DNA of 64,000 nt from a virus. Lineage: Duplodnaviria > Heunggongvirae > Uroviricota > Caudoviricetes. The stretch covers positions 8,923-72,922 of the IMG/VR virus record IMGVR_UViG_3300021400_001778; one strand, written 5' to 3'. Position 1 is the first letter of the stretch. The number at the start of each line of letters is the position of its first letter. Below the pieces are notes generated by a model. It searched no databases. It saw nothing but the letters and a program-made list of their open reading frames with translations, and was not told where the DNA came from. This document shows positions 8,056-53,544 of the stretch, one piece after another. The position numbers and the translations under genes are program-made.

Positions 8056-8062
8056 ATATATT

Positions 8063-8092
8063 TGGGGAGGGTTACTACTCTCCCCTTTTTAT
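8063..8092 (+). terminator. Hairpin followed by a T-run directly after the tape-measure stop (possible partial terminator or attenuator inside the tail operon)
   Basis: ggggagggttactactctcccc followed by ttttt. Confidence 0.4.
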
Positions 8093-8109
8093 TATGGAGG
8101 AAAATAATA

Positions 8110-8934: not shown

Positions 8935-8949
8935 GGAGGTGTTTTATAA

Positions 8950-13620: not shown

Positions 13621-13641
13621 TTGAATTAAAGGAGAAATACG

Positions 13642-13968: not shown

Positions 13969-13998
13969 GTCTTATTTTTTTATAAAGGAGGATTTTAT

Positions 13999-14505: not shown

Positions 14506-14524
14506 AATTTAGGAGGTATACATT

Positions 14525-14788
14525 ATGGAAACTTTCGGAATTGCTACTGTCGCGGCTATCACTCTTATTTGTTATTGTATCGGTATGATTATTAAAACTA
14601 CTGAATTTATTGATAACAAATTTATTCCCGCAATTGTGCTTGTTGTTGGCGCAGTTCTTGGAGGAATCGGGATGTATGTTATTCCAGAATATCCCGCAAG
14701 CGACATTATTACGGCAATCGCTGTAGGTTTCGCATCTGGCGGAACTGCAACAGCAGTCAACGAAACAATTAAACAACTTGGACAGTAA
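14525..14788 (+). CDS. Putative holin (87 aa, two transmembrane segments)
   Basis: Small protein with two hydrophobic helices and a charged C-terminus, sited just before the cell-wall hydrolases; aggagg ribosome-binding site. Confidence 0.55.
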   Translation: METFGIATVAAITLICYCIGMIIKTTEFIDNKFIPAIVLVVGAVLGGIGMYVIPEYPASDIITAIAVGFASGGTATAVNETIKQLGQ

Positions 14789-14796
14789 TTAAATCA

Positions 14797-14826
14797 AGGG
14801 GAGTGCGGAAAGCACTCTCCTACTTT
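14797..14826 (+). terminator. Rho-independent terminator-like hairpin after the holin gene
   Basis: ggagtgcggaaagcactcc followed by tacttttt. Confidence 0.4.
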
Positions 14827-14843
14827 TTAATAAGGAGTTTTGA

Positions 14844-15761
14844 ATGAGAATAAGTGATTTTACAGAAATATTAAAAGCGGGCAAGGATTCTATTATACCT
14901 ATAGTCACGGGCAAAATTAATCGAAAAATAACGATTGATAACTTAAAGAAAAGTATGGAGTTATCAAGCGATGATATATCTTATAGCAACCAAAATAATT
15001 TAGACGGCGGTAATACAGTGCAAGATGCAATAGCGAGTATAGCAAACGCTGTAAATCAACTTGCGCGTGACGGTGTTGCTTTAGCCGATATTCAAGCAGA
15101 GATTACTAATTATTTCAATGAGCATCCTATAGCTTCTTATTCATATACATTAGTAAGAGATGGTAGCACTGGCGCATATAATCTTAATGATATAAATGGA
15201 AATTCTTGTGGAAATCTTTCGCCAGTACATACGATAAGTGATGATAGTGAATCAATCGAAATTCCTACTTCTGGCGCGGTTAAAACTCTTGTTGATAGCG
15301 CGACAACTTTAGGGAAAAAGAATAATGTCGTTGTTACTGACGCAAATTTCAAACCTGTTTCATCAGATATTTCTACAACAGTTTTAAATAAAATAGTTAC
15401 AGATACAGGTTGGAAAGCTGTAACAACATTAAGTAAGAAATTTGAATTGTATTATAACGGTAGCACCGTTCAATATAGAAAAGTTGGTCAAACAGTATTC
15501 ATTCGCGGCGTTGTAAGTCCTTTAAAAAATTTAACTGCGGCGGCTGTCAATGAAAATGCGGAAGTAATTTTTACACTCCCAAGCGGTTTTATGCCAACGA
15601 GAAATTGTCAATTTGTTTGTCAAGGTTCTGGCGCAAATCGTTGGCTATTAAGTGTTTATAATACTGGTGAAGTAACGTTGAGTAGATACGGCGCATCGTC
15701 TTTTATAGATTGTCCTATAGGGGCATATTTACCATTTAATGTTTCATTTTTAATTAATTAA
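14844..15761 (+). CDS. Hypothetical protein (305 aa), possibly virion- or cell-wall-associated
   Basis: ORF with an aaggag ribosome-binding site; no recognisable motif. Confidence 0.35.
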   Translation: MRISDFTEILKAGKDSIIPIVTGKINRKITIDNLKKSMELSSDDISYSNQNNLDGGNTVQDAIASIANAVNQLARDGVALADIQAEITNYFNEHPIASYSYTLVRDGSTGAYNLNDINGNSCGNLSPVHTISDDSESIEIPTSGAVKTLVDSATTLGKKNNVVVTDANFKPVSSDISTTVLNKIVTDTGWKAVTTLSKKFELYYNGSTVQYRKVGQTVFIRGVVSPLKNLTAAAVNENAEVIFTLPSGFMPTRNCQFVCQGSGANRWLLSVYNTGEVTLSRYGASSFIDCPIGAYLPFNVSFLIN

Positions 15762-15773
15762 TGGAGGAAATAT

Positions 15774-17564
15774 ATGAACGAACACAATAAGTTAGTTATG
15801 GCTAACATAATCTCAGGTGTAGAAACTGGCGGTCAAAGATACGGATATGGTCGTTGGGATGATTATACGAGACCATATAAAAATACAAGTGGAGAGCATA
15901 CTTGTACATTGGGCGCGTTTCAATTTTACGGCGGCGAGGCAAATGAATTATGCAATATGATTTTTAAAGCCGATAAAAATTTATTTCGCAGACTTGATAC
16001 TTGTTCGCCAAGTATAGAATCTATGTTAAATAAGGATTGGGTTGGTATGCGTTGGAATCCGTCTTCTTCACAGGCGGCTACTTTGTCTGCGCTTATCTCA
16101 ACCGAAACTGGTATTAAATGCCAGAAAGAACTTTTCGCGGTAAAACAGTTAAATGCTTACGAAAAACGCGCCACAGAATACGGCGTAAAGGATGTAAAAG
16201 CACGAATGATGTGGATAGAAATTCAACATTTAGGCGGCGGTAATGCCCCTAAGAGAATATTTGCGCGTTGTAATGGTAACTATTCTGTTGATAACATTCT
16301 CGATTGTTTAAATCCGAGATATGCGGATTATAATAAATACAATGAGCCAGTTGAAGCAAAAATATTTTGGACGCGCCATGTGTGCTGTGCAACTTGGATT
16401 AAACAATATGCAGAAGACGAGGGTGAAACACAAACTGCAACGAAAACATATCTTACAACAGGTTCTTCTGGCGAAAAGGTTAAAGAATTACAATCTAATT
16501 TGATGCTTGTCGGATTATGCGATTGTGGATATTACAGTAGTCCGCAACGCTTCATTGATGGCGACTTTGGAGATAATACAAGAAAATCTGTTGTCGCACT
16601 TCAAGAAATTAGCGGTATTGAAACAGACGGGATTTATGGCGAACAGTCAGAAAAAGCACTTACCGCATTAGTTAAATCAGCAAATGAATCTAAATTTAAT
16701 TTAACCGTTGGCGAATTTTTAAATAACGCAAAGAAAGTTGCTGATTTTGTACGCGAGAAAAACTTTAAGTATGGTAATGCCGCGTTCATTCCGTCTGTAT
16801 ATTATCCGCACGAGAAATATGTATCTTGCGATAGATTTGTTGATATGGTTCTTTTTGAATCTGGTTTAAAAAATGTCGGAAATAGAAATGTAGGTTCTTT
16901 AGAGTTATATCTTGCCGCAAATGGTTGCAAAAAGATAACTAATAAATCGGAAGTTAAGGCGGGCGATATTATCTACTTTAAAGGACATGTTTTTATTCTT
17001 GGTGAGAAAAGAAATAACGGGTTGTATGAAAGATATGATTGTGGCTCAAACGCGCGTATTCAAGGCATACAACCGTTCGTAGAAAACATCGACGGTTTTA
17101 TTTACGCTTATAGATTACCGTTTAAGGCGAATGTAAGTAATGATGATACTAAGACGCGACTCGTTAAAAGCGGTCAAGTTCATCTTAATAACTACGTAGG
17201 GGCTGGTTTAAGCGTTGATGGTGATTATGGCACAGATACTCGCCATGCGTTTATAAAGGCTCTGCAAAGGGCAGTAAATAGGGATTACGGGTATAGTATG
17301 CATACTGTCCTACTCGAAAATGGCGAGTGGAATAATTCCCTTGAAAAAGTTATAAAGGAACACCCTGTTACGATATACACGGAGCAACCCAACATAACAC
17401 TCGTATTAGCGATAGGACTTTATATAAATGGGATTGAGCCATACGGTTTAACGATGAGTGAAAAACTGATAAATGCGTTAAAGAAATATCAAAAGAAAAA
17501 CAGTCTTGAAGTAGACGGCGCGGCGGGCGTTAAAACATTCAAATCTTTGGCTACAATTAAATAA
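15774..17564 (+). CDS. Cell-wall hydrolase with PG_binding_1 repeats and an NlpC/P60- or CHAP-like C-terminal domain (endolysin candidate 1)
   Basis: PG_binding_1-like repeats (GSSGEKVKELQSNLMLVGL...DGDFGDNTRKSVVALQ...DGIYGEQSEKAL); C-terminal Cys/His region (...GDIIYFKGHVFIL...). Confidence 0.6.
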   Translation: MNEHNKLVMANIISGVETGGQRYGYGRWDDYTRPYKNTSGEHTCTLGAFQFYGGEANELCNMIFKADKNLFRRLDTCSPSIESMLNKDWVGMRWNPSSSQAATLSALISTETGIKCQKELFAVKQLNAYEKRATEYGVKDVKARMMWIEIQHLGGGNAPKRIFARCNGNYSVDNILDCLNPRYADYNKYNEPVEAKIFWTRHVCCATWIKQYAEDEGETQTATKTYLTTGSSGEKVKELQSNLMLVGLCDCGYYSSPQRFIDGDFGDNTRKSVVALQEISGIETDGIYGEQSEKALTALVKSANESKFNLTVGEFLNNAKKVADFVREKNFKYGNAAFIPSVYYPHEKYVSCDRFVDMVLFESGLKNVGNRNVGSLELYLAANGCKKITNKSEVKAGDIIYFKGHVFILGEKRNNGLYERYDCGSNARIQGIQPFVENIDGFIYAYRLPFKANVSNDDTKTRLVKSGQVHLNNYVGAGLSVDGDYGTDTRHAFIKALQRAVNRDYGYSMHTVLLENGEWNNSLEKVIKEHPVTIYTEQPNITLVLAIGLYINGIEPYGLTMSEKLINALKKYQKKNSLEVDGAAGVKTFKSLATIK

Positions 17565-18820: not shown

Positions 18821-20143
18821 TCATTCTTCAAACTTATCTTTGAGTTTTAAATAAAGTTCGTATAATTCTTTTTCTCTGTCGCGCGACAAATTATTTTTAT
18901 AATCGTCAAGAACGGCTTTAGATGGTGTTGTAATAGCACTTAAACTTTCTTTTGTTGCATGGGTATATACATTTTCTGTATTAATCGCCCTGTGTCCTAC
19001 CATAAGTGCTGTACTAACTACATTCGCCCCTTTCGCATTATTAGCGATAGATATAGCTGTATGTCTTAAAGAGTTAATTGATAATCCTTTCATTCTCCCT
19101 GTTTTAGTTAAATGTACATCTCTATCAATCCCCATCTTATCGCAAACTAAATTAAAGCCAACGCGCATAGTTGCGTTACTTCTTCTTTTGCCGTTTCGGA
19201 ACGTGGGATAGAGTAAATCATCTGGATTATTCAGACAATGCAACTTAGTTTGTTCTTGCATATACTCAACACATTCTCGGCATAAATCGGACATAACAAC
19301 AAACCTACTTTCGCCGTTCTTCGGTACTTTCACATATTCTTCTATGCCGTTATTCTTCTCATTGTTTATGAATCTCGTTGAACGTGTTTCAACAATGTTA
19401 ATTATATTCTGTCTAAAGTCAATGTTACTATTTCGCAAAGATGCAAACTCGCTTTCTCGCATACCCGTTTCTAAAAGGAATAGTATTACAACTGGATACT
19501 CGCTAATATTTTTCTTATAAGCGTAATAGAATTTTTGTATGTCCTCGGCGGTAAATACTTCTTTGCGATTTTTTAATTCTTGTTCGCGTTTGTGGTCGTA
19601 TTCGTCTGCTACTTCTCGCGGTACTCTTGCAATTTTCGCGTAATTCTCATCTAACAAACTTCTGTTTACAAGGTATTCGCAACACCTTCTGCATAGTTGA
19701 ATAGGCAAAGAGCATGTTTTTCTTGATTTCTTTTCAAGGATTGAGTTGTAATAACTTTCAAATTCTGTCGATGTAAGCAAATGAAGCTGATAATTTGCAA
19801 TCGGGAATGGATAGAAATTAACCTTCATATTTGAGCAGTAAGTTTTATAACCACTTGCAGTTATATTCGGCTTAATCTCGTTATCTATAAACTCGCTCAT
19901 ATATTCGCCAAATGTTTTACCTTTTGGAATTTTCGCATCCTTTCCTTTCTCTATCTCTTTCTCCCAAGCACGTTTAGCCATTAGCGCGTTTTTCTGCGCT
20001 TCTTCCTTTGTGCTTCCCCTTCTTTTAATTCTTTTTGCATTACCTGTTTTGGGATTTGGATATTTCGCAACCATAACGCATTCATATTTACCGTCCGTTA
20101 ATTTTCTTACGCTACCCTCTCCGTTTTGTGCCTTATTTCTCAT
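18821..20143 (-). CDS. int: Tyrosine-type integrase (site-specific recombinase, 440 aa) with an N-terminal arm-binding domain
   Basis: C-terminal catalytic motifs ...LRHTAISIA...MVGHRAINTENVYTHAT (R...HxxR...Y); N-terminal AP2-like segment SVRKLTDGKYECVMV. Confidence 0.85.
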   Translation of the reverse strand: MRNKAQNGEGSVRKLTDGKYECVMVAKYPNPKTGNAKRIKRRGSTKEEAQKNALMAKRAWEKEIEKGKDAKIPKGKTFGEYMSEFIDNEIKPNITASGYKTYCSNMKVNFYPFPIANYQLHLLTSTEFESYYNSILEKKSRKTCSLPIQLCRRCCEYLVNRSLLDENYAKIARVPREVADEYDHKREQELKNRKEVFTAEDIQKFYYAYKKNISEYPVVILFLLETGMRESEFASLRNSNIDFRQNIINIVETRSTRFINNEKNNGIEEYVKVPKNGESRFVVMSDLCRECVEYMQEQTKLHCLNNPDDLLYPTFRNGKRRSNATMRVGFNLVCDKMGIDRDVHLTKTGRMKGLSINSLRHTAISIANNAKGANVVSTALMVGHRAINTENVYTHATKESLSAITTPSKAVLDDYKNNLSRDREKELYELYLKLKDKFEE

Positions 20144-21026: not shown

Positions 21027-21812
21027 TTAGAATAATTTTTCGATATATTCTCGCCCTTCTTTCTTAAATGCGGGAATTTCTAAGTCAATATACCACTTGT
21101 CTCTTGCGAAAACGCTCTGTTCTAATGTCGGCGCAGTTTTGATAAGGGGAACTTTTTTCTTTATACAGCAACTACCCAAAAGATGATGCGATTCGTAATT
21201 AGACAGATAGTCGTTCTTTTCGTGGAGCATACCAATAACTTCATCTCTTGATTTGTTTTTTAATTGCTTATCAGAATAATGCGTCCTTGCAATCATATTT
21301 ACTGCATTCCTAAAAGCATCAGATTGCCGCCAGTAAAAATAATTCGTAACTTCTTCTTTAGGAATATTAAACGTTCGGCAATCAAATGTGACATATTTAT
21401 GGTCATAATATCGTTCAAAAAGTTCATCGAATTCATTTTCGTAATCTTCTACATTTGCTTCGTATCTATTCAAGAAAGCCGCAGTTGCCATACTTGCGAT
21501 AACGGAGCAAAGTTTCTGAACTCTATACCCGAAAAACGGTTCTGCTCTTTCATTTAAATAGTTCGCAAGAAGCAGAGATATTTCGTCCGACTGTGTATAT
21601 CCTAATACGCAACCTTGCACATTTTCACAAAGATACTGCATAGTATCGCGCATTGTTCTTGAAAGAACATCATCAAATGGCTTTTGAAAATTCTTTGTGA
21701 ATGTATGAAAACATCTGCCATCGACCCTAACAATGACTGGCTCGTATGGGTCGAGAGCGACATTAAACTGCCGCTCATAACCCTTCATTCTCTTATCAAA
21801 TTCTGTATACAT
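21027..21812 (-). CDS. Thg1-like protein (tRNA-His guanylyltransferase family 3'-5' nucleotidyltransferase)
   Basis: PYEPVIVRVDGRCFHTFTKNFQKPFDDV and LGYTQSDEISLLL match the Thg1 motifs VVRxDGRxFHxF...KPxD and GYGQSDEYSF; size 261 aa. Confidence 0.7.
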   Translation of the reverse strand: MYTEFDKRMKGYERQFNVALDPYEPVIVRVDGRCFHTFTKNFQKPFDDVLSRTMRDTMQYLCENVQGCVLGYTQSDEISLLLANYLNERAEPFFGYRVQKLCSVIASMATAAFLNRYEANVEDYENEFDELFERYYDHKYVTFDCRTFNIPKEEVTNYFYWRQSDAFRNAVNMIARTHYSDKQLKNKSRDEVIGMLHEKNDYLSNYESHHLLGSCCIKKKVPLIKTAPTLEQSVFARDKWYIDLEIPAFKKEGREYIEKLF

Positions 21813-22313: not shown

Positions 22314-22904
22314 TTAAAATTCTCGCGCTATATAATGTTTAAACTCTGAATATGTATTAAATTTGCTCCTAAAACTCGATTGAATATCTTCGAGATGCAA
22401 TCCGAATTTTTCTGTTACAAAATTAATATACTCAAAATCATATACCTTTTTTCTACGTTTATTTTTCTTTTTGATAATATCGAAAACTTCACTTTTAGGA
22501 ACTTTATATTCTGCGAAAAGATAATTAGCCATATCCCGCGAAGAATATTCTTCAAATTGACAAATGGGACAAAATTCTTCTGGCATTTCATAGCACCATT
22601 CTGATAGAATGTTTTCAATAAGTTCACCGTCACTCATCTCGGTAATCTCATCTTCCGAAAGTCTATAAAATTCACTCATTCTATAAACTTTCCTCATACT
22701 ATTGTTGATTTGAGTTATAAATTCTAACAACTTATCTCTCGATGGAATTAACATATGTTCATCACAAATAACGTGTCCATTCATACATTCAAACATATCC
22801 CCATCTCGTACTGAACAATCCCATCCTGATACTTCGTTGCCGCATATATCACACACATATGATGACGAACTTGAATTTGTTACAAAATCTTTTCTGTATT
22901 TCAT
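22314..22904 (-). CDS. Paralog family member 1 (MKYRKDFVTNSSSSSYV N-terminus; Cys-rich, Zn-binding-like C-terminal part)
   Basis: Shares the N-terminal ~16 aa with four neighbouring ORFs; the remainder is unrelated. Confidence 0.6.
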   Translation of the reverse strand: MKYRKDFVTNSSSSSYVCDICGNEVSGWDCSVRDGDMFECMNGHVICDEHMLIPSRDKLLEFITQINNSMRKVYRMSEFYRLSEDEITEMSDGELIENILSEWCYEMPEEFCPICQFEEYSSRDMANYLFAEYKVPKSEVFDIIKKKNKRRKKVYDFEYINFVTEKFGLHLEDIQSSFRSKFNTYSEFKHYIAREF

Positions 22905-22916: not shown

Positions 22917-23396
22917 TTAATGATGACTAAAACGCTTGATAGTACAATCGAGATATGGCATAATATCATGCTCAAGGTCTCCGTCAGTGTGGTCACAATA
23001 TTCGACTTCTGCCAAATATTCACAATCATCAATTTTTTCTTTGAAACGCTTATATAACTCATCTATCTTTGAATTTACAGCATCATCAAATTCTTTTTTA
23101 TTTTCTTCCTTCTCAATCCATTTTTCAAAATTTGTATAACCACCCAATTTATCCTCGTAACTATCTTCTAAATAAAATTTCACATTCCATCGAACTTCAT
23201 CTTTAAATATTTCAAGCGCATATTCTTTTGTTATTCTGTGTTTTTTTATATCACGCAAAACTTCATCATATTTATAAATACTGTCACATTTAACCATTGA
23301 TTCTTTTAATTGTGAATCTATATCATTTTCGCTTTTAAAACCAACTATAAAACTACTTGAACTACTATTTGTTACGTAATCGCATCTTATTTTCAT
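22917..23396 (-). CDS. Paralog family member 2 (MKIRCDYVTNSSSSSFIV...)
   Basis: Conserved N-terminal motif; acidic, divergent C-terminus. Confidence 0.6.
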   Translation of the reverse strand: MKIRCDYVTNSSSSSFIVGFKSENDIDSQLKESMVKCDSIYKYDEVLRDIKKHRITKEYALEIFKDEVRWNVKFYLEDSYEDKLGGYTNFEKWIEKEENKKEFDDAVNSKIDELYKRFKEKIDDCEYLAEVEYCDHTDGDLEHDIMPYLDCTIKRFSHH

Positions 23397-23408: not shown

Positions 23409-23909
23409 TTATCCTACATCGTGTTGTATTAATAAGTGTTTGCGGCATGTCTGTTTTAAAAACCCGTTTCTTATAGCCCATTCAAGTAATCCACCATTTG
23501 TATCCCAAATTGTAGAAAACACAATCTTTTCAGAATTATCTATTTTGTTTATAGATTCAATATAATTATTATCGTTTTTTATTTTATCATCTATTAAATC
23601 TTTACACTCTTTAGATTTTAGATACACGAATAATTTGATTAATGATAAATTTTCAGTTTCATTTTTTATGTTGTTTTTTACTTCTTTTTCATATTTTGCA
23701 TAATATACATTATATAAAAACTCTTTCGCCCGTTTTTTCAATTCTTCTTGTGATGCTCTGTGTAATTGCGACTTAATAAATGTCAGTAATTCGTTATAGT
23801 CATACCAATCCATTTCTTCTACAAATTCTGCATAATCATCATTTGTGCTAAATGTTAAAATAAAACTACTTGAACTACTGTTTGTAACATAATCGTTTCT
23901 AATTTTCAT
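23409..23909 (-). CDS. Paralog family member 3 (MKIRNDYVTNSSSSSFIL...)
   Basis: Conserved N-terminal motif; divergent C-terminus. Confidence 0.6.
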   Translation of the reverse strand: MKIRNDYVTNSSSSSFILTFSTNDDYAEFVEEMDWYDYNELLTFIKSQLHRASQEELKKRAKEFLYNVYYAKYEKEVKNNIKNETENLSLIKLFVYLKSKECKDLIDDKIKNDNNYIESINKIDNSEKIVFSTIWDTNGGLLEWAIRNGFLKQTCRKHLLIQHDVG

Positions 23910-23911: not shown

Positions 23912-24350
23912 TTATTCCTCTATTAAAACTATGAAATCTTCTGACTCCGCGGCGGCGATAACCTCTTTAAATTTATCCGATTCATCGTAATCAACATGTT
24001 TTTCAAATATAGAATACCCTTTACTTATATACTCTTTACCTTTTTCATAAAAAAATCTGGTGCAGTAATCATCTTCAAGAATTTCATCTAATGTGTTACA
24101 TTTCGACCAAGGGTAAGAGTACTGTTCTATAATATAGTTTTCAAGTTCTTTGACACTATTAATTATATAAGCGTCCTCCGTGTAATTATTATCATTACCG
24201 TATAATATAAAAATCATCAAACATTCTTTGTAAACAATCAATAAATGGGTATTTCTCTCGTGTCTCGCAATCAACTTCTGGGAATTTTTTATAAGCGACT
24301 ACAAAACTACTACTGCTTGAGTTAGTTACAAAATCTTTTCTAATTTTCAT
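23912..24350 (-). pseudogene. Paralog family member 4, frameshifted: MKIRKDFVTNSSSSSFVV... starts at 24350 and stops after 50 codons; the 120-aa ORF 23912-24274 continues in another frame
   Basis: Manual translation from the ATG at 24350 reaches a stop near 24198; overlapping ORF in a different frame. Confidence 0.45.
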
Positions 24351-25177: not shown

Positions 25178-25528
25178 TTATTCAGAACCCTTCTTAAAAT
25201 ATTCGCTATCGTAGTCAAGAGAATTATAAAGAAATCTGTCAATATACCCGTCATCGCTATCAGCAGTACCGCTGAAAATCTTCCAATCTCCAAGCGTTAA
25301 TAAAGGCGTAGTGTGTAATTCGCATGAAATATATCTTTGTATATCTTTTTCTTTCTTTTCCTGTGTAACACCGCAACCCCACTTCTTTTCATAATCTGTA
25401 ACTTCGCTTGCCTCTTTATTTGCTAATACAAATTTCTTAACTTCATCTTCAATGTTAGCATCTTTATGAATGGCAATGACGTAAGAACTCGAACTGCTAT
25501 TTGTCACAAAGTCTTTTCTTATCTTCAT
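25178..25528 (-). CDS. Paralog family member 5 (MKIRKDFVTNSSSSSYVI...)
   Basis: Conserved N-terminal motif; divergent C-terminus. Confidence 0.6.
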   Translation of the reverse strand: MKIRKDFVTNSSSSSYVIAIHKDANIEDEVKKFVLANKEASEVTDYEKKWGCGVTQEKKEKDIQRYISCELHTTPLLTLGDWKIFSGTADSDDGYIDRFLYNSLDYDSEYFKKGSE

Positions 25529-25730: not shown

Positions 25731-26033
25731 TTAATCACCGTTTATATAAAAAGCATTATTGTCGCATTCAACGAAAATAACATCTTTACCTCTACCATAA
25801 TGATTTCCCGCATAACATTCACCCATTATTTGATTATGAATATTTTTAAAGTATTCAATATTTAACTTAATGTATTCAATCGCGCCCTCTTTTGTTTCAA
25901 AATCCTGTTCTGTTTCCCAAAAGAACGCCCGTTGATTTGTTACAAAAAACGTGTCTATATCAGGACAAAAGGCTATAACATAAGTATCATGTTCTCTCAT
26001 TGCGTCATCTGGTATTTCTTCATAAATTATCAT
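25731..26033 (-). CDS. Hypothetical protein (100 aa)
   Basis: ORF whose start is coupled to the stop of the upstream gene. Confidence 0.3.
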   Translation of the reverse strand: MIIYEEIPDDAMREHDTYVIAFCPDIDTFFVTNQRAFFWETEQDFETKEGAIEYIKLNIEYFKNIHNQIMGECYAGNHYGRGKDVIFVECDNNAFYINGD

Positions 26034-28390
26034 TTATTTCTCCATATCACTAAATGTCTATCTACATTATTGCACAAAGTAATTTCATTCCTAATGGGAC
26101 ACCCGCCCATGCATTCATTTCTTCTTTTACAGTTTGGACATGAGTTTCTAAAAATATTTCTAAAGTTTTCAAAAACATTACTATCCCATGCGTTTTGAAT
26201 CGTATCATTAGAAATGTCATAAGCCCACTTCATATCCTGATTATCAAAGCTACAAGGTAACGCTTTCATATCAGAAGTAATATACATACTCCATCTTCCG
26301 CCCTCGCAAGTATCAAAGCTATCTGGATTTACTTTTGTAGTGTAATTAATAAGCGCGGGAACTGTGCAACTATCAAATCCAATCTTAAAATTGTGGTCTA
26401 CATTTTCGATAGCTTCAAAAAATCTCTTTACTCGCGGGTCATCTGTGTGTAATACTTTTTCCTGTGTACCTAATCCAACTGGCTTATAAAGCAGAAAAAT
26501 TACAGCGTTGATACCTTTCGGAAAATCATTATTCTCAATTCTTGTAATAGCTTCATCAATGGAATTATTACTAAGAACGTAATGAATATTTGTTTTAACT
26601 CCCGCATTTAGTAGTAAATTTACCGCTCTCTTTGTGTATGGTGCATGATGCTCGGATACAGCCACCGCTCCACAATATTTTTTACATAATTCAGCCTTTT
26701 CTTTTGTCATCATTATTCCACTTGTAGTAAAATTTGGAACAATATTGTATTTTTTACAAATTTTAAGTAAATCTTCAAAATTTTCATGGGTATCAACGTC
26801 ACCCGCCCCACCCATTGCGCAATTATGAGAAACAATAAAATGTGTTGTCACAAACAAGTGTTCTTTTGAATTTATATTTATATCAATAACTCTTCTTTTA
26901 CCGACATTTTTTATTGAATTTACAATGTATCCTTTTCTATGTCTCAAATAATTCTCATTATGTTCTACATTTATAATTGTATTTAAAAAATTGTCGTAAT
27001 CTATGTGTTCAGAAATTACTTTATAAATTTTTCTAATCTCTAATAAATTTGATATTATAATTCTATAGCGTTTCTTTCTATTTATAATCCTTTTATCATT
27101 TTTTGAAAATTCGAATTGTCCGCCATTTTCTGTATTTACGGAATAATCAACATTTATTTTTGATAAAAGCATTGTTAAATCTTTGAACAATTTTTCGCTT
27201 GAAGTATTAAAAATAATTTCGCCATAATTACCATCATGTGTTTTAATATCTATATTGCCATCGCAAAAATAACCTTCAAGAAAATACAAAATCATTTCAT
27301 CGCTTACGCTATATATGAAAATCGGTAACTGTTTTTCTCGATTAGGAGTTCTACATCCAAAAATATTGTCAAATAATTCTTCATGGAGCATGTTACTACT
27401 TAATTCAATTATACAAGCACCTTGCGAATATCTTGTTGTATATGAGAAATCATCAAAACAATTCTGTAGACATTTTTTTATTGAATCAATCATTTTTGTT
27501 TGTTTTTCATTTACAACATATCTCCTTCGCGAACCATTACCAATATAATGACCAAGTAATATCATAAAATCTTTCGTTATTGGATATATCGTTTTAAGCC
27601 TATAGGGAGAACGAGCTTTTGATATTTTTGCGTCTCTATAATTTATTTCCTCTAAATGATTTTTAATTTTTGATATTAATACAGTTTTATTCCTATTCCT
27701 TTTAATGTTATATTTATTGCATACTTCCATTAAACCTTCACAGTCTGATAAGAAAAAATAATCGTCTAATCCGCGGGAAATAATTAATTTAACAACATCA
27801 ACTTCATTGATTGATTGTATATTCTTTTTGTTTTTAGCAGTTACGAATTCGTCCCCTACTTTTAATTCTTCAACAGTTTTTAGACCATCCACTGTAAGAA
27901 ATTTATGTTCTTTTGTTGCTTTAATTGTTTTGCCGTATCCGATATTTATTTCATATACATCGTCATATTTTTCGCGTTTTTCATATACATCGTGAAAACC
28001 GTCTCCGCAATAAATATTATCTCCGACTCTAATATTTTTAATGTATACACTACTTATATAGTTACCAGATTTGCGTAAAACAACTTCATCTTCGTGTAAA
28101 CATTGAAACATTTTACCAGACGATTCTTTCATTATTTTTTCGAAGTTTTCGACGCTCATATTTTTGCCTTTGCGCTCTATTGCTTTTTGATAACAATCAA
28201 CATTACAATATTTTGCACAAACACACGTTTCCATAACCCCAACGTCAATAAGTTCTGGAAATGAAGACATAAATGGGTCTACGCCAGTATCAACACCATT
28301 CTCAATAATCCCTGTTCTCGCGTAAAATCCAGTTTCCGTATTAAAGGTTGAAATATATTTATATTTAGCATCGTGTTTAGTGATAATCAT
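26030..28390 (-). CDS. Radical-SAM/SPASM-like Fe-S enzyme (exteins ~359 aa) interrupted by a LAGLIDADG intein
   Basis: N-extein Cys cluster TCVCAKYCNVDC; C-terminal SPASM-like CPNCKRRNECMGGCPIRNEITLC (Cx2Cx5Cx3C); inserted 427-aa element begins CLHEDEVVL and ends FIVSHN followed by C. Confidence 0.55.
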   Translation of the reverse strand: MIITKHDAKYKYISTFNTETGFYARTGIIENGVDTGVDPFMSSFPELIDVGVMETCVCAKYCNVDCYQKAIERKGKNMSVENFEKIMKESSGKMFQCLHEDEVVLRKSGNYISSVYIKNIRVGDNIYCGDGFHDVYEKREKYDDVYEINIGYGKTIKATKEHKFLTVDGLKTVEELKVGDEFVTAKNKKNIQSINEVDVVKLIISRGLDDYFFLSDCEGLMEVCNKYNIKRNRNKTVLISKIKNHLEEINYRDAKISKARSPYRLKTIYPITKDFMILLGHYIGNGSRRRYVVNEKQTKMIDSIKKCLQNCFDDFSYTTRYSQGACIIELSSNMLHEELFDNIFGCRTPNREKQLPIFIYSVSDEMILYFLEGYFCDGNIDIKTHDGNYGEIIFNTSSEKLFKDLTMLLSKINVDYSVNTENGGQFEFSKNDKRIINRKKRYRIIISNLLEIRKIYKVISEHIDYDNFLNTIINVEHNENYLRHRKGYIVNSIKNVGKRRVIDININSKEHLFVTTHFIVSHNCAMGGAGDVDTHENFEDLLKICKKYNIVPNFTTSGIMMTKEKAELCKKYCGAVAVSEHHAPYTKRAVNLLLNAGVKTNIHYVLSNNSIDEAITRIENNDFPKGINAVIFLLYKPVGLGTQEKVLHTDDPRVKRFFEAIENVDHNFKIGFDSCTVPALINYTTKVNPDSFDTCEGGRWSMYITSDMKALPCSFDNQDMKWAYDISNDTIQNAWDSNVFENFRNIFRNSCPNCKRRNECMGGCPIRNEITLCNNVDRHLVIWRNK
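26822..28102 (-). mobile_element. Intein (~427 aa) with a LAGLIDADG homing-endonuclease domain inside the radical-SAM-like gene
   Basis: Intein block A CLHEDEVVL; LAGLIDADG-like MILLGHYIGNGS and LYFLEGYFCDGNI; terminal blocks ...KRRVIDININSKEHLFVTTHFIVSHN with +1 Cys. Confidence 0.6.
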
Positions 28391-28392: not shown

Positions 28393-29550
28393 TTAATATT
28401 TATAACCTCCCGTTTCACTACAAGATAAATATAGATGCTTTGCTGCTCTCTGTAATTCTAATAATTCTCTATATGTTTTAATAGGAACTTCGTTTGTGTG
28501 CGTAACAAAAATTGAAAAATCCCTGTTTGCATCGTTCCTAATTCGTGTTATTAATTCATCAAAATCTAATGTGCCGTATCTCAAACTTCCTTGGTGCGGG
28601 TTAGGAATGTTCGTTCTATCAACTCTGATATTACCTATATTCTCTTTTGCGCATTCTGTTTTAAATTCACCCGCGCCGTGTCTTGTCATGTATGTGCGAG
28701 TGACATAAATTGGTTCAACATAAAAATCGCCAGAGAAAGAGTTTTCAATTTCTACGATATTTTTCATTCCAGTATTACTCGGAGTTGTATGCACATTATC
28801 TTTATCGCTATTTAACAATAAACCTTGTCCATTCTCGAAAATAATAGAATCATAATTTCGTATCACTTCCGCGTCAGATTCAATTGTATTATCAATCATA
28901 AACATTAAGTCATCAATAAAGTGGAATCGTATTTTATAATCCTCGATTAATGGCTTCCAATAATAATAAATTTCGTCTGTTATTGCTCCACTTGTACGGT
29001 ATTTACTAAGTGTATGTCTAAATAGATACGCGCGGATTTCAATTTCTTTCATTGTTTCATATAAGTCGGCTTTCTTAAAATCGCCATATCTCCAACAATA
29101 ATTATTATTATCGTATAATTTAACCGTTTCCCATATTCCTAACCCACAACTGCCATGTTTAGTTTTACGGCTTTGCTCCAACATCTGATTCAAAAAAGAT
29201 TCATAAAACGTAGATATTCTACAATTTTTGTCAATATAGACTTTTGGTTTATAACCTAATTTGACAAGTTCTTCAAATTCTTTTCTAAATACAATCGGAT
29301 TAAGTATAAAATATTCAGATAAATATGTATCTGCTCTTCTAAATGTTCCGCTACCGAAATGGCTAAAAGCGTGTCGCGTACCGTCTTCCAAAACAACAGT
29401 ATGGGAACGTTGCGCTCCTCCGTTGTTACAAATTACGAGACAATTACCGTATGTATTCATCGCTTCATCAGCAAGAGCATCTGTGGCAAGTCCCTTACCT
29501 TCGTCACCATAATTAGCACCAATAACAGATTTTGCGTCAATCGTTCCCAT
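28393..29550 (-). CDS. Adenylosuccinate synthetase (PurA) family protein; a PurZ-type 2-aminopurine pathway enzyme is possible
   Basis: GANYGDEGKGL (compare GTQWGDEGKGK), GGAQRSHT (compare GGHNAGHT), FENGQGLLL (compare FEGAQGTLLD), TRHGAGEF (compare TRVGAGPF). Confidence 0.75.
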   Translation of the reverse strand: MGTIDAKSVIGANYGDEGKGLATDALADEAMNTYGNCLVICNNGGAQRSHTVVLEDGTRHAFSHFGSGTFRRADTYLSEYFILNPIVFRKEFEELVKLGYKPKVYIDKNCRISTFYESFLNQMLEQSRKTKHGSCGLGIWETVKLYDNNNYCWRYGDFKKADLYETMKEIEIRAYLFRHTLSKYRTSGAITDEIYYYWKPLIEDYKIRFHFIDDLMFMIDNTIESDAEVIRNYDSIIFENGQGLLLNSDKDNVHTTPSNTGMKNIVEIENSFSGDFYVEPIYVTRTYMTRHGAGEFKTECAKENIGNIRVDRTNIPNPHQGSLRYGTLDFDELITRIRNDANRDFSIFVTHTNEVPIKTYRELLELQRAAKHLYLSCSETGGYKY

Positions 29551-29570: not shown

Positions 29571-30455
29571 TTACCAAGAAATACCGTCTGTTGCTGTAGT
29601 ATTACCCGTTGCGATTACTATGCCGTCATTGTTATTATTATTTGTCGCGGAGATAATAATTTCTGTAATTATATCCGCCACATTGTTGAGATTTGCTTCA
29701 TAATAATTATTTTTACCGATAACATCTTTAAAGGACTTCGGAATATCATCGTATGAATAATAACTATGTGTCACATTAATGTGATAGATGTCAAATTTAT
29801 CAGACGCAAGTTTAAATAAATTCTTTGTATCAACATCGGACTGTAAATTATCGCCAACAAATTCTTTAATTTTATCTTTTTGCAAATAAGGATTAAGTGT
29901 TTCATCGCCAAGTGTAATAATAATTCCCTTCTTGCCGCGTTTCCAACAATCGAGTTTTGTATGGTATAATCCCATATACCAAGCGGCTGTATATGACTCG
30001 TAATTATTAGCACCGCCGCCGAACTCGAAATATACCTTGTCAAGATGTTCGGCAATTCTTACATCGGATTCAAACTGTGACATCTGAATTGGTGCGTGGT
30101 CGCAATACAAATCACCAATACCCATAATACAGAACTCAACATCGGTAATTTCATCATAGAGTTTTGTCATAATAACATTTAAACTCTTTGCGACTTCTAC
30201 TGCGGCACTTCCCATAGAACCAGTTACATCGAGCGCAAGAATCACTGGAATCGTATTCGGATGCTCTTCTGTGTCGCAACATTCGCGCATAATGTTTTTC
30301 GGGAACAAATCTGCGTGTATCTGTCGCTGTTTGTAAATAGCTTGATTCGATGATACGCCAGACCCAGTAAGTCTACCCAAACTATCAAGTGTTGCGCTTT
30401 TTGTCGCGGAACTATAACTTGCATAACTATCTCTACTCCAACTTCCAGAACCCAT
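29571..30455 (-). CDS. von Willebrand factor A (vWA) domain protein
   Basis: MIDAS-type motif VILALDVTGSMG. Confidence 0.6.
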   Translation of the reverse strand: MGSGSWSRDSYASYSSATKSATLDSLGRLTGSGVSSNQAIYKQRQIHADLFPKNIMRECCDTEEHPNTIPVILALDVTGSMGSAAVEVAKSLNVIMTKLYDEITDVEFCIMGIGDLYCDHAPIQMSQFESDVRIAEHLDKVYFEFGGGANNYESYTAAWYMGLYHTKLDCWKRGKKGIIITLGDETLNPYLQKDKIKEFVGDNLQSDVDTKNLFKLASDKFDIYHINVTHSYYSYDDIPKSFKDVIGKNNYYEANLNNVADIITEIIISATNNNNNDGIVIATGNTTATDGISW

Positions 30456-38016: not shown

Positions 38017-39297
38017 TTATGCTGTTTGGATACTCGCGACTTTAGCCGTGAGAGGAAAACAACTTCTCCTTTCTATAAGATATCCATTAACATGTTCTAA
38101 TAATTTTAACTTCTTATAACTAATATTTCCTTTATTCACTTTATCTCCACTTAAATTTCTTATATCAAAATACCCAGTTTTTCTTCTTGCGAAGATAAAA
38201 TACTGTTTCCCTTGATACATTACTCTATCGTATAAATGAAACCCATGTATATCATAATCTGTCTGATTTCTTTTCTTTACGCCACCTTTGCAGATATTGA
38301 ATTTATGAATTTGGCGATTATGTCTTCTAACTTTCCTATAATAGTAAATACAATCATCGTCTTTTGCTAATGTATTTCCGCTAATACATCGCGCGTCTAT
38401 ATAATGTTCTTTCGGCAAACCATGAAGAATCCTACTGTTCTTTGTAATATATCCGAATGTCATAGATACATCTTTATATCTACTTTTTAATTCGTTGTAG
38501 AACGCCCATCGCATAATCCCCATAAACGTTGCGTCTCTAAAAGACATGCCACGTTTGATTGTATTAGGAAGTTTTACCGTCCCATTGTGATATCCTTTGT
38601 GGCAAGTTTCGCAAAGTGTAATTAAATTGTTTGGCGCATCACCACCCGTCTTTCTACTTTCGATATGATGAACATTTAAAATCTTATCTTTTGACTTACC
38701 TTTACAGCATTGGCAAGTGTGACCATCTCTGAACAATACATATTCACGCACGTTCCAAAATCCAAGCTGTTCACCCTCTTGATACATTTCGTTATGTATA
38801 TCAGGGTTTTTAATCTTCTGTATATCAAAAGACGCTGTTTCAACCACAATCTTTGATATAGGAAGAATATTATAAATCTTATCAACCACAGATAAATGCG
38901 TTTCAATTTTGTGTCTGATGCTTGGCGATAACCATTTCTCGCATCGCTTTCGGTTGTTGAAACGTGCTTTGCGATATCTTGTTTTGCGATTTCTTCGTTC
39001 TTTTCTTGCTCCGCGCCTTGTAGATAACTTCTCTACAATATCGTTTCGGAGTTCTACTTCCGATTCAAATAAAACTTGATTACTTGTAGTTGCTGATAAT
39101 CCTATAGTTTTACTTCCACTATCAACTCCAAGAGAGATATCTTGAATAACATTTCCAGTTTCGTATAATAATTGAATCGTGAACGGATTTTTATTAATTA
39201 CCTTTGCTTTATTGTCTCGCAAAAGTCTTCTTACTTTCCCAAAACGCTTCGTTGGCATTAAAGGTTTTCCGTCTCGATTTATCACATAAACAAACAT
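38017..39297 (-). CDS. iscB: IscB (OMEGA-system RNA-guided nuclease, IS200/IS605-associated ancestor of Cas9)
   Basis: N-terminal PLMP domain (INRDGKPLMPTKRFGKVRRLL), RuvC-I (ISLGVDSGSKTIG), Arg-rich bridge helix, HNH (CQCCKG...NVHHIESRKTGGDAPNNLITLCETCHKGYHN), RuvC-III (KEHYIDARC); 426 aa. Confidence 0.85.
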   Translation of the reverse strand: MFVYVINRDGKPLMPTKRFGKVRRLLRDNKAKVINKNPFTIQLLYETGNVIQDISLGVDSGSKTIGLSATTSNQVLFESEVELRNDIVEKLSTRRGARKERRNRKTRYRKARFNNRKRCEKWLSPSIRHKIETHLSVVDKIYNILPISKIVVETASFDIQKIKNPDIHNEMYQEGEQLGFWNVREYVLFRDGHTCQCCKGKSKDKILNVHHIESRKTGGDAPNNLITLCETCHKGYHNGTVKLPNTIKRGMSFRDATFMGIMRWAFYNELKSRYKDVSMTFGYITKNSRILHGLPKEHYIDARCISGNTLAKDDDCIYYYRKVRRHNRQIHKFNICKGGVKKRNQTDYDIHGFHLYDRVMYQGKQYFIFARRKTGYFDIRNLSGDKVNKGNISYKKLKLLEHVNGYLIERRSCFPLTAKVASIQTA

Positions 39298-52354: not shown

Positions 52355-52358
52355 TAAT

Positions 52359-52430: not shown

Positions 52431-52439
52431 ATTATTTAA

Positions 52440-53446: not shown

Positions 53447-53474
53447 AAAAACCCTTTCTTTTTTATTTTTAATA

Positions 53475-53543: not shown

Positions 53544-53544
53544 C

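What the first reader, a model, noticed from the sequence alone, without database searches (positions are those of the whole stretch)
26030..28390. Intein with a LAGLIDADG endonuclease inside a radical-SAM/SPASM-like Fe-S enzyme of unknown function
The 786-aa ORF resolves into exteins totalling about 359 aa plus a 427-aa intein. The N-extein has the Cys cluster CVCAKYCNVDC. The C-extein has a SPASM-like Cx2Cx5Cx3C...C. The intein starts CLHEDEVVL, carries two LAGLIDADG-like blocks and ends VSHN before Cys. Inteins mark essential, conserved active sites, and the insertion sits just before a Gly-rich CAMGGAGD segment. The Cys spacing of the putative radical-SAM cluster is non-canonical (Cx3Cx3C rather than Cx3Cx2C). 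Either the cluster is unusual or the family assignment needs testing. Its neighbour is a PurA-like enzyme, which suggests nucleotide or nucleic-acid modification chemistry.
Basis: partly seen in the sequence, partly recalled or inferred. Interest (0 to 1): 0.65.

Follow-up and report, generated by a model that had tools for sequence, protein, structure and literature searches.

The report
Intein-split phage radical-SAM protein maturase
A phage gene for an iron-sulfur "radical SAM" enzyme is interrupted by a self-splicing intein, and its conserved partners are not the nucleotide enzyme next door but a set of downstream proteins that all begin with the same serine-rich tag, an enzyme-plus-tag pair I found described nowhere.

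Summary
ORF 26030-28390 (-) encodes 786 aa: a 427-aa class-1 intein (aa 97-523) with a LAGLIDADG domain, inside a 359-aa radical-SAM/SPASM enzyme. A 92-93% identical sister phage lacks precisely these 1281 bp.

The spliced extein models as a SPASM enzyme; its nearest solved structures are anSME, SuiB, CteB and PqqE.

- The conserved cluster cysteines are C56/C62/C66 (Cx5Cx3C), not Cx3Cx3C. This loop varies across the family, which includes canonical Cx3Cx2C members.
- The PurA-like neighbour is present in only 3 of 80 related viral loci, so it says nothing about function.

The conserved partners are genes whose products start MK(I/V)RxDFVTNSSSSS(F/Y). The window has five, just downstream. They occur in 74/80 viral and 76/80 bacterial loci that carry the enzyme, and 70/78 loci anchored on the partner carry the enzyme. 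E. coli phage RB16 has both. No Pfam, NCBIfam, PADLOC or literature entry covers the tag.

Best reading, inferred and not shown: after splicing, an anSME-like maturase modifies the serine tag. The intein is a new member of a known kind; the enzyme-tag pairing appears undescribed.

The parts
26030..28390 (-). Whole 786-aa ORF: radical-SAM/SPASM precursor containing an intein
   Evidence: The identical protein is found on two independent metagenome contigs.
28103..28390 (-). N-extein, aa 1-96. It comprises a family-specific N-terminal beta-rich extension (about aa 1-45) and the first barrel strand with the cluster loop.
   Evidence: AF2 secondary structure.
28193..28225 (-). Cluster-binding loop CVCAKYCNVDC (aa 56-66). 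The invariant cysteines are C56, C62 and C66, giving Cx5Cx3C. C58 is only near-invariant.
   Evidence: Invariant columns. The spacing survey of 150 family representatives found Cx3Cx2C in 25, Cx7Cx6C in 22, Cx5Cx3C in 8, the window type CxCx3Cx3C in 7, and others.
26822..28102 (-). Intein, aa 97-523 (427 aa): class-1 HINT splicing domain plus a LAGLIDADG endonuclease domain
   Evidence: Pfam Intein_splicing 2.7e-10 and LAGLIDADG_3 9.9e-5. PI-PkoII endonuclease domain 1.5e-5 and DnaB inteins. Absent from the 92%-identical homologues and from sister phage L240. GC 26.5% against 34% in the exteins.
27905..27916 (-). Intein block B, TxxH (TKEH, aa 159-162)
   Evidence: It aligns with the DnaB intein block B.
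27530..27562 (-). LAGLIDADG motif 1 (ILLGHYIGNGS). It has Asn where the metal-binding Asp/Glu is expected.
   Evidence: Aligned to LLGYYVSEGY of PI-PkoII. Asn in 4 of 5 same-site inteins and Glu in P0167.
27254..27286 (-). LAGLIDADG motif 2 (YFLEGYFCDGN), acidic residue present
26822..26890 (-). Intein blocks F and G (VIDININSKEHLFVT THFIVSHN), ending His-Asn before Cys+1
26030..26821 (-). C-extein, aa 524-786: the rest of the radical-SAM barrel and the SPASM domain
26798..26812 (-). GGAGD (aa 527-531), the counterpart of the SAM-binding GGE motif. The intein is inserted 3 residues upstream.
   Evidence: Aligned to GGEP of PqqE and anSME. Relative P0167 reads GGGEP.
26099..26140 (-). SPASM motif Cx2Cx5Cx3C (CPNCKRRNECMGGC), followed by C773. 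Further upstream, C675, C695 and C713 are also invariant.
   Evidence: invariant columns; SPASM models; aligned to PqqE and anSME SPASM.
25178..25528 (-). Tagged partner 1 (116 aa), MKIRKDFVTNSSSSSYV...
   Evidence: phrog_7397 over the tag only.
24195..24350 (-). Tagged partner 2, truncated (51 aa), MKIRKDFVTNSSSSSFV.... Probably a decayed paralogue, continued out of frame by ORF 23912..24274.
   Evidence: The same split is seen in L240 and L243.
23409..23909 (-). Tagged partner 3 (166 aa), MKIRNDYVTNSSSSSFI...
22917..23396 (-). Tagged partner 4 (159 aa), MKIRCDYVTNSSSSSFI...
22314..22904 (-). Tagged partner 5 (196 aa), MKYRKDFVTNSSSSSYVCDICG.... This is the Cys/His-rich subfamily that is conserved in most loci.
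   Evidence: AF2 gives pLDDT 88, with residues 1-10 below 50. No PDB fold match.

Best explanation
The ORF encodes a radical-SAM/SPASM enzyme of a temperate siphovirus-like phage, probably of Clostridia, interrupted by a class-1 intein that carries a LAGLIDADG homing-endonuclease domain.

The intein sits three residues before the SAM-binding GG(E/A) motif. It must splice out (Cys97 ... His-Asn523 | Cys524) to give a 359-aa enzyme. The insertion is a presence/absence polymorphism between near-identical phages. It belongs to an old intein lineage that occupies this same site in distant members of the enzyme family.

The enzyme keeps three invariant Cys for the SAM cluster, in an expanded loop (Cx5Cx3C), and eight invariant Cys for two auxiliary clusters.

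Its functional partners are the downstream paralogous proteins that share only an N-terminal tag, MK(I/V)Rx(D/G)FV(T/S)NSSSSS(F/Y).

Inferred mechanism: the spliced enzyme binds this exposed tag and, like its closest structural relative anSME, abstracts a hydrogen atom from a tag residue, most plausibly a Ser C-beta. The result would be a post-translational modification (a formylglycine-type oxidation or a cross-link) on many different cargo proteins.

What is shown: the intein anatomy and boundaries, the enzyme's fold class, and the gene association. What is inferred: that the tag is the substrate, and the chemistry.
For: Intein:
- Boundaries are exact against the 92%-identical intein-free homologues.
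- The insertion is a clean 1281-bp gain relative to sister phage L240.
- Pfam Intein_splicing and LAGLIDADG_3 both hit, as do PI-PkoII and DnaB inteins.
- Blocks A, B, C, E, F and G are conserved in four other inteins at the same site, whose identity (24-45%) tracks extein identity (41-59%).

Enzyme:
- Radical_SAM 6e-6 and SPASM 4e-4, plus NCBIfam SPASM maturases.
- AF2 pTM 0.81.
- Foldseek best hits are anSMEcpe (E 7e-11, TM 0.60), SuiB, CteB, TigE, PqqE and SkfB.
- Family members have canonical Cx3Cx2C and GGGEP motifs.

Partners:
- Five tagged genes lie within 3.2 kb downstream in the window, and none elsewhere in the 64 kb.
- 71/80 viral loci have tagged genes within 5 kb downstream on the same strand. 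In bacterial genomes 74/80 have one adjacent: 50 downstream (median gap 21 nt) and 24 upstream.
- In the reverse direction, 70/78 loci anchored on a partner family carry the enzyme, including enzymes only 26-30% identical.
- E. coli phage RB16 has the enzyme plus two tagged proteins. Across 50,697 phage records, the 171, 174 and 175 records holding them fall in essentially the same genera.
- The tag is kept by selection on the protein: among 314 distinct genes, all six Ser codons are used at each Ser position.
- The bodies behind the tag are unrelated: Zn-ribbon-like, BspA-type LRR, BRCT, TIR.
- AF2 leaves tag residues 1-10 unstructured (pLDDT below 50).
Against: - No biochemical evidence exists for splicing, SAM cleavage or any modification.
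- The window extein scores just below the Pfam and NCBIfam thresholds for Radical_SAM (26.9 against 29.5), SPASM (20.9 against 21.5) and TIGR04085 (26.5 against 27).
- The cluster loop is non-canonical.
- The tag bears no resemblance to the anSME target motif C/S-x-P/A-x-R.
- The second half of the tag (SSSF-V) is predicted to be the first strand of the folded body, so it may be partly structural.
- In RB16 the tagged genes lie about 20 kb from the enzyme, and co-occurrence within that one phage clade may be simple co-inheritance.
- LAGLIDADG motif 1 has Asn at the catalytic acid position, so current homing activity is doubtful.
Confidence: 0.6

Rival explanations
1. The tag is a docking peptide, not the substrate. 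The tagged proteins (LRR, BRCT, Zn-ribbon, TIR bodies) would be exchangeable specificity or adaptor subunits that bring the radical-SAM enzyme to third-party targets such as host proteins or nucleic acids.
For: - The bodies are typical binding modules: LRR_5, BRCT, Zn-ribbon-like.
- The enzyme has a family-specific N-terminal three-stranded extension that could take up a tag strand.
- The same co-occurrence data apply.
Against: - Five near-invariant serines, kept through all six codons, are more than a docking strand would need.
- Many partners are small proteins with no recognisable binding domain.
- The closest structural relatives act directly on the peptide they bind.
Confidence: 0.2
2. 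The tag is a sorting signal (virion packaging, secretion or localisation) that has nothing to do with the radical-SAM enzyme. The linkage would reflect shared residence in a variable accessory region.
For: - Arrays of small proteins with one shared N-terminus and different bodies recall the T4 internal-protein loci with their capsid-targeting sequence (own knowledge).
- In RB16 the tagged genes are 20 kb from the enzyme.
Against: - The pair is a tight two-gene cassette in bacterial chromosomes with no phage structural genes nearby, for example beside a type I-E CRISPR-Cas operon.
- The association holds in both directions and down to 26% enzyme identity.
- The tag has no hydrophobic signal-peptide core.
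Confidence: 0.1
3. One reading: the enzyme works with the adjacent PurA-like protein in nucleotide or nucleic-acid modification.
For: - The genes are adjacent and co-oriented, 2 nt apart.
- The PurA-like protein matches phrog_1211, annotated '2-aminooxy adenylosuccinate synthetase'.
- Viperin-like nucleotide-modifying radical-SAM enzymes appear lower in the fold list.
Against: - A PurA-like gene lies within 10 kb of the enzyme in only 3 of 80 viral loci and in 0 of 80 bacterial loci.
- The top fold matches are protein- and peptide-modifying SPASM enzymes.
- The PurZ model scores 26 bits against a cut-off of 300.
Confidence: 0.04
4. The intein no longer splices, so this allele is an inactivated gene kept only by chance.
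For: - The endonuclease motif 1 has lost its acidic residue.
- The intein has lower GC than its host gene.
Against: - The 2361-nt frame is open.
- Every splice-critical residue is present: Cys1, TxxH, block F, His-Asn and Cys+1.
- The exteins are 92% identical to intein-free alleles with no lesions.
- The identical protein occurs in two independent samples.
Confidence: 0.05

Closest known systems
Anaerobic sulfatase-maturating enzyme (anSME: AtsB, ChuR, anSMEcpe; PDB 4K36-4K39)
   Same: - It is the best structural match to the spliced enzyme (E 7e-11, TM 0.60).
- It has the same size and layout: a radical-SAM barrel plus a full SPASM domain with two auxiliary clusters.
- It acts on a short Ser/Cys-containing motif near the N-terminus of whole proteins (own knowledge).
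   Different: - Sequence similarity is confined to the SPASM domain (E 0.18), and the NCBIfam search of the spliced extein returned no anSME model among its matches.
- The candidate target is NSSSSS(F/Y), not C/S-x-P/A-x-R, and none of the partners scanned matched a sulfatase family.
- The family has an extra N-terminal beta extension and a cluster loop of variable length.
RiPP-type radical-SAM/SPASM maturases with multi-copy precursors (SuiB, CteB, SkfB, PqqE, TigE)
   Same: - They are next in the fold list.
- The genetic logic is the same: one enzyme followed by one to many co-oriented substrate genes that share a short conserved recognition region.
   Different: - The partners here are full-size proteins (median 143 aa, up to 1062 aa) with folded bodies.
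- The conserved element is at the very N-terminus and is 17-18 aa long.
- No protease or exporter was recognised among the neighbouring genes that were examined.
- No PqqD-like RRE was detected in the enzyme.
Inteins in radical-SAM proteins and phage LAGLIDADG inteins (for example NCBIfam NF038136 'intein-containing Rv2578c family radical SAM protein'; PI-PkoII)
   Same: - It is a class-1 intein with a nested LAGLIDADG domain at a catalytic motif of the host protein.
- There are weak hits to NF038136 (E 0.024) and to PI-PkoII (1.5e-5).
   Different: - The host family and the insertion site (before GG(E/A)) are different.
- tblastn found no related intein in 50,697 cultured-phage records.
- Motif 1 lacks the acidic residue.
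T4 internal-protein loci (shared capsid-targeting N-terminus on variable small proteins)
   Same: An array of small, fast-diverging phage proteins that share only their first residues.
   Different: - The tag here is different in sequence.
- It also occurs in bacterial chromosomes, and it is tied to a radical-SAM enzyme.
- The comparison rests on own knowledge and was not tested.

Membership tests
Class-1 intein (HINT domain) | Cys/Ser at position 1 and Cys/Ser/Thr at +1 | tested here: met
   Cys97 and Cys524. All five same-site inteins have C1 and C+1.
Class-1 intein (HINT domain) | Block B TxxH, a block F acidic/aromatic strand, and block G ending His-Asn | tested here: met
   TKEH at aa 159-162, VIDININSKEHLFVT, and ...IVSHN. 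Pfam Intein_splicing scores 40.7 bits against a cut-off of 35.8.
Class-1 intein (HINT domain) | Precise absence from orthologous alleles, with an in-frame insertion | tested here: met
   P0001 and P0002 at protein level. L240 at DNA level, where exactly 1281 bp are missing.
Class-1 intein (HINT domain) | Protein splicing actually occurs | not testable with these tools
   This needs expression and a gel or mass-spectrometry assay.
LAGLIDADG homing endonuclease | Two LAGLIDADG motifs, each ending in a metal-binding Asp/Glu | tested here: inconclusive
   Both motifs are present. Motif 2 has Asp; motif 1 reads IGNGS, with Asn. Asn is found in 4 of 5 related inteins and Glu in P0167. Pfam LAGLIDADG_3 scores 23.0 against 22.5.
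Radical SAM superfamily | Three-Cys motif Cx3Cx2C that binds the SAM cluster | tested here: not met
   The window has Cx5Cx3C (C56, C62, C66) with an extra C58. Three invariant Cys are kept, and 25 of the 82 representatives in which the loop could be scored have the canonical spacing. The canonical form is therefore absent here, but the family as a whole belongs to the superfamily.
Radical SAM superfamily | GGE-type SAM-binding motif after strand 2 | tested here: inconclusive
   The window has GGAGD, which aligns with GGEP of PqqE and anSME. Relative P0167 has GGGEP.
Radical SAM superfamily | Partial TIM-barrel fold / profile match | tested here: met
   All 50 listed Foldseek hits (of 87 with E <= 0.001) are radical-SAM enzymes. 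Pfam Radical_SAM has E 6e-6, but at 26.9 bits it is below the 29.5 cut-off.
Radical SAM superfamily | Reductive cleavage of SAM | not testable with these tools
   Biochemical assay needed.
SPASM domain (two auxiliary 4Fe-4S clusters) | C-terminal Cys pattern: ...C-gap-Cx2Cx5Cx3C-gap-C, plus upstream Cys | tested here: met
   C675, C695, C713, C751, C754, C760, C764 and C773 are all invariant or near-invariant. The region aligns to the PqqE and anSME SPASM domains. The models score just below their cut-offs in the window protein: PF13186 20.9 against 21.5, TIGR04085 26.5 against 27. The PF13186 model is recorded for many homologues.
Anaerobic sulfatase-maturating enzyme | A sulfatase substrate carrying the C/S-x-P/A-x-R motif | tested here: not met
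   None of the partners scanned matched a sulfatase family, and the shared tag lacks the motif.
PurZ / 2-aminoadenine (Z-genome) pathway (the neighbour gene) | Match to the PurZ equivalog model | tested here: not met
   NF038379 scores 26.4 bits against a cut-off of 300. PurA equivalogs score 77 against 402.

The most novel reading that the evidence does not exclude
A widespread protein-tagging system that none of my searches found described. A dedicated radical-SAM/SPASM enzyme would install a covalent modification on an invariant N-terminal serine tag, MK(I/V)Rx(D/G)FV(T/S)NSSSSS(F/Y), carried by dozens of unrelated cargo proteins (Zn-ribbon, LRR, BRCT, TIR and many orphan folds). The system is found in gut Clostridia, in their phages as arrays of up to about ten cargo genes, and in T4-like enterobacterial phages such as RB16 and RB43. 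It possibly acts in phage-host conflict.
Probability: 0.4. Interest if true: 0.8.

Novelty: new variant of a known kind. Interest (0 to 1): 0.6.

Why it matters
The intein by itself is a tidy but ordinary case. It adds a new host family and insertion site, and it marks the SAM-binding motif of the enzyme as important.

The larger point is the enzyme. The family has thousands of members (4385 hits at E <= 1e-5) in gut and rumen phages and in Clostridia, and it is present in about 170 cultured Klebsiella, Enterobacter, Cronobacter and E. coli phages. It has no assigned function.

The family is tied to a protein tag for which I found no curated model or paper. If the tag is its substrate, this would be a radical-SAM modification applied to whole, diverse proteins through a portable N-terminal tag. 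That would interest both enzymologists and phage biologists.

The family also shows natural variation in the length of the cluster-binding loop (Cx3Cx2C, Cx5Cx3C, Cx7Cx6C and others). That makes it a useful test set for asking how much the canonical motif can stretch. RB16 and RB43 make the question testable in E. coli.

Tried and rejected
- **Phage identity:** megablast of the region against cultured phages found no match.
- **Intein relatives in cultured phages:** tblastn of the intein found none.
- **196-aa partner in cultured phages:** tblastn found no match. The RB16 partners were found only by a motif scan.
- **PurA link:** rejected on co-occurrence, 3/80 loci.
- **Thg1-like gene as a third component:** present near the enzyme in only 7/80 viral and 4/80 bacterial loci, so it is not core.
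- **SPFH, HD and vWA-like neighbours:** 12, 1 and 3 of 80 viral loci respectively, so they are not core.
- **Curated models for the tag:** Pfam, NCBIfam and PADLOC hold none. PHROGs has only phrog_7397, 'unknown function'.
- **Fold of the 196-aa partner:** Foldseek against PDB found nothing at E below 1.
- **Literature:** seven full-text searches found nothing relevant. They covered the tag string, SPASM with phage, intein with radical SAM, and RB43 with radical SAM. The Campylobacter phage paper they turned up concerns other inteins.
- **Source annotations:** the collection carries no informative names beyond 'radical SAM protein with 4Fe4S-binding SPASM domain'.
Full report
**1. The observation**

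The ORF at 26030..28390 on the minus strand is 786 aa. Cutting it at CLHEDEVVL and at VSHN|C gives three parts: an N-extein of 96 aa, an intein of 427 aa (aa 97-523; window 26822..28102) and a C-extein of 263 aa.

The insertion is real. A search with the joined exteins found 4385 homologues, almost all 330-380 aa long. The closest (P0001 and P0002, 92% identical) read ...GKIFQ|CAMGGAG with no insert.

A sister phage contig (L240) is 92-93% identical in DNA on both sides and lacks exactly these 1281 bp. Its empty site reads ...AAAATATTTCAA|TGTGCAATGGG.... The intein has 26.5% GC against 34% in the exteins. The identical 786-aa protein occurs on two independent metagenome contigs.

**2. The intein**

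- Pfam Intein_splicing (2.7e-10, above its threshold) and LAGLIDADG_3 (9.9e-5) both match.
- The endonuclease domain aligns with PI-PkoII (1.5e-5), and block B aligns with DnaB inteins.
- All splice-critical features are present: Cys1, TKEH (block B), block F, terminal His-Asn and Cys+1.
- Four other family members (P0129, P0130, P0167, P0236) carry a homologous intein at the same site. Intein identity to the window (24-45%) falls in step with extein identity (41-59%). This is therefore an old resident of the site, not a one-off.
- A tblastn hit in viral locus L075 (50% identity, directly upstream of the C-extein match) points to a further allele, but I did not delimit it.
- One caveat: LAGLIDADG motif 1 reads IGNGS, with Asn where PI-PkoII has Glu. 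Asn is found in four of the five same-site inteins. The nuclease may be impaired or may act as a nickase.
- tblastn found no related intein in 50,697 cultured-phage records.

**3. The host enzyme**

- The spliced extein hits Radical_SAM (6e-6) and SPASM (4e-4), both just below their thresholds. It also hits a string of NCBIfam SPASM maturases and phrog_7293, which has no assigned function.
- An AF2 model of the intein-free homologue P0001 has pTM 0.81. Its best PDB matches are anSMEcpe (E 7e-11, TM 0.60), then SuiB, CteB, TigE, PqqE and SkfB. These are all SPASM enzymes that modify proteins or peptides. Viperin, MoaA and BtrN rank lower.
- Eight C-terminal Cys are invariant, including Cx2Cx5Cx3C...C, which is enough for two auxiliary clusters.
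- The intein sits three residues before GGAGD, which aligns with the GGEP SAM-binding motif of PqqE and anSME.

**4. The odd Cys spacing**

The invariant cysteines are C56, C62 and C66. C58 is missing in several relatives. The cluster triad is therefore Cx5Cx3C, not Cx3Cx3C.

Across 150 representatives of the family, the loop between the anchors D(I/V)G(I/V)Mxx-C and C-YQ could be scored in 82. Its length varies:

| Spacing | Representatives |
|---|---|
| Cx3Cx2C (canonical) | 25 |
| Cx7Cx6C | 22 |
| Cx5Cx3C | 8 |
| CxCx3Cx3C (window type) | 7 |
| Cx4Cx2C, Cx7Cx3C, Cx5Cx2C and others | rest |

RB16 has Cx7Cx2C. The family assignment stands, and the unusual feature is a stretchable cluster loop. 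One relative (P0192) has a mini-intein inside the Cx3Cx2C motif itself. Another (P0168) has lost the cluster cysteines.

**5. The neighbour argument fails**

The PurA-like gene (28393..29550) is a real Adenylsucc_synt homologue (1.5e-29; phrog_1211). It scores far below the PurA and PurZ equivalog cut-offs. A homologue lies within 10 kb of the enzyme in only 3 of 80 related viral loci and in none of 80 bacterial loci.

**6. What is conserved instead**

Downstream of the enzyme, on the same strand, the window has five genes whose products begin MK(I/Y)RxD(F/Y)VTNSSSSS(F/Y): 25178-25528, 24195-24350 (truncated), 23409-23909, 22917-23396 and 22314-22904. The motif occurs nowhere else in the 64 kb.

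The association holds in both directions:

- Of 80 viral loci found through the enzyme, 74 have such genes, 71 of them within 5 kb downstream on the same strand. The median is 3 copies and the maximum 8.
- Of 80 loci from bacterial genome assemblies, 76 have one. Typically a single gene abuts the enzyme: 50 downstream (median gap 21 nt) and 24 upstream. These assemblies are mostly Lachnospiraceae, Oscillospiraceae and Acutalibacteraceae. They include the isolates Acetatifactor muris, Fusicatenibacter faecihominis, Lacrimispora amygdalina and strain NK4A144.
- In the reverse direction, 70 of 78 viral loci found through the 196-aa partner family carry the enzyme upstream. This holds even where the enzyme is only 26-30% identical and the tag reads MKIRxGFVSNSSSSSF.

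**7. Nature of the tag**

- Among 314 distinct tagged genes, positions 10-16 are almost invariant (N, S, S, S, S, S, F/Y). Of these, positions 10-13 were fixed by the search pattern, while positions 14-16 were left free and are still conserved. Each Ser position uses all six codons, so the selection is on the protein, not on the DNA.
- Conservation falls off sharply after about residue 18. Lengths run from about 90 to 1062 aa.
- The larger bacterial partners carry BspA-type LRR, BRCT or TIR domains. The 196-aa subfamily has conserved Cys/His pairs.
- An AF2 model of the 196-aa partner has pLDDT 88. Residues 1-10 are unstructured, and S13-V17 form the first strand. The body has no PDB fold match.
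- Pfam, NCBIfam and PADLOC have no model for the tag. PHROGs has phrog_7397, 'unknown function'.
- Seven full-text literature searches found nothing on it.

**8. Cultured phages**

The only cultured phages with the enzyme are T4-like phages of Enterobacteria such as RB16, RB43, KP15, KP27, Miller and GAP161. There are 171 such records, at 27% identity to the window extein.

RB16 also encodes two tagged proteins, RB16p106 and RB16p111. Both start MKIRSGFVSNSSSSSF and lie about 20 kb from the enzyme gene RB16p156. Their homologues occur in 174 and 175 records with essentially the same genus breakdown as the enzyme. Within one clade this may be co-inheritance. It does show that the pair spans phages of both Firmicutes and Proteobacteria, and it gives a tractable model.

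**9. Context**

The window is a temperate siphovirus-like phage. It has an integrase (18821-20143), a 2063-aa tape measure protein, minor tail proteins, endolysins and several free-standing HNH endonucleases.

In bacterial chromosomes the two-gene cassette sits among conflict-type genes:

- In NK4A144 it lies beside a type I-E CRISPR-Cas operon and an AAA-ATPase/PD-(D/E)xK gene.
- In Fusicatenibacter it lies beside a microbial PARG, a Thg1-like gene and a metallophosphatase.
- In A. muris it lies beside a 1797-aa AAA/M41 protein.

**10. Interpretation**

- Shown: an intact class-1 LAGLIDADG intein at the SAM-binding motif of a radical-SAM/SPASM enzyme, and a strong two-way genomic association of that enzyme with proteins carrying an invariant N-terminal serine tag.
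- Inferred: after splicing, the enzyme acts on the tag. The tag is the only element common to all partners. By analogy with anSME, which oxidises a Ser or Cys in an N-terminal sulfatase motif (own knowledge), the most plausible chemistry is hydrogen abstraction at a tag serine, leading to an aldehyde or a cross-link.
- My confidence by step: about 0.95 for the intein and the enzyme class, about 0.8 for a functional link to the tagged proteins, about 0.5 for the tag being the substrate, and about 0.2 for the specific chemistry.
- The main rival keeps the physical link but makes the tagged proteins adaptors that direct the enzyme to other targets.

**11. Verdict**

The functional hint from the neighbour was wrong, and so was the Cys reading. 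The intein is a new member of a known kind. The enzyme-tag system is a new variant of the maturase-plus-substrate theme and appears undescribed.

Noticed in passing
window 28393-29550 (-) and 29571-30455 (-): A PurA-like gene (Adenylsucc_synt 1.5e-29; phrog_1211, annotated '2-aminooxy adenylosuccinate synthetase') sits next to a vWA-like gene (phrog_2971; DxTGS MIDAS-like motif read by eye). The PurA-like protein scores far below both the PurA and PurZ equivalog cut-offs, so its substrate is open. The pair recurs together in the 3 related loci that have it.
   Followed up: partly
window 21027-21812 (-): A Thg1-like tRNA-His guanylyltransferase (Pfam 2.3e-32; phrog_4717) lies at the end of the tagged-gene array. 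A homologue also sits two genes from the enzyme-tag cassette in Fusicatenibacter faecihominis (L183), but overall in only 7/80 viral and 4/80 bacterial loci.
   Followed up: partly
window 24195-24350 and 23912-24274 (-): A tagged paralogue appears broken: a 51-aa ORF carrying the tag is followed by an overlapping ORF of about 100-120 aa in another frame. The same split is called in the sister contigs L240 and L243, so it is either an old frameshift or a programmed one.
   Followed up: no
P0192 (family representative): A mini-intein of about 130 aa is inserted inside the canonical Cx3Cx2C cluster motif (...CSHACKY|C...VLVHN|CYQNA). This is a second intein site in the same enzyme family.
   Followed up: no
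P0071; also window 396-1772 (+) and 38017-39297 (-): One homologue has a GIY-YIG/NUMOD3 endonuclease fused or abutting at its N-terminus (626 aa). The window phage itself carries at least two free-standing HNH homing endonucleases. This gene and this phage are frequent targets of mobile nucleases.
   Followed up: no
P0123, P0129, P0173 (family representatives): An insert of about 90-100 aa that is not an intein follows the AVAVS strand (about residue 153) in one sub-clade. P0129 has both this insert and the intein.
   Followed up: no
P0168 (family representative): A 494-aa relative has lost all three SAM-cluster cysteines but keeps the SPASM cysteines, and it has gained a C-terminal extension of about 150 aa. 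It may be a pseudo-enzyme.
   Followed up: no
L203 (Lachnospiraceae bacterium NK4A144), 7575-17034: The two-gene cassette (126-aa tagged protein plus enzyme) lies directly upstream of a type I-E CRISPR-Cas operon (Cse1, Cas7, Cas5, Cas1, Cas2-Cas3 HD) and downstream of an AAA-ATPase/PD-(D/E)xK gene.
   Followed up: partly
L242 (phage RB16) 611-5001: The two RB16 tagged genes (RB16p106, RB16p111) flank a 739-aa protein with an N-terminal vWA domain (RB16p109). The window also has a vWA-like gene two genes upstream of its enzyme. Whether a vWA protein is a recurrent third player was not tested.
   Followed up: no
window 52358-54314 (-): ARAGORN finds tRNA-Ile(TAT), tRNA-Gln(TTG) and tRNA-Leu(TAA). 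It also makes a 'tmRNA' call at 53476-53699 whose low end overlaps a listed 299-aa ORF (52628-53527). That call is unverified and may be spurious.
   Followed up: no
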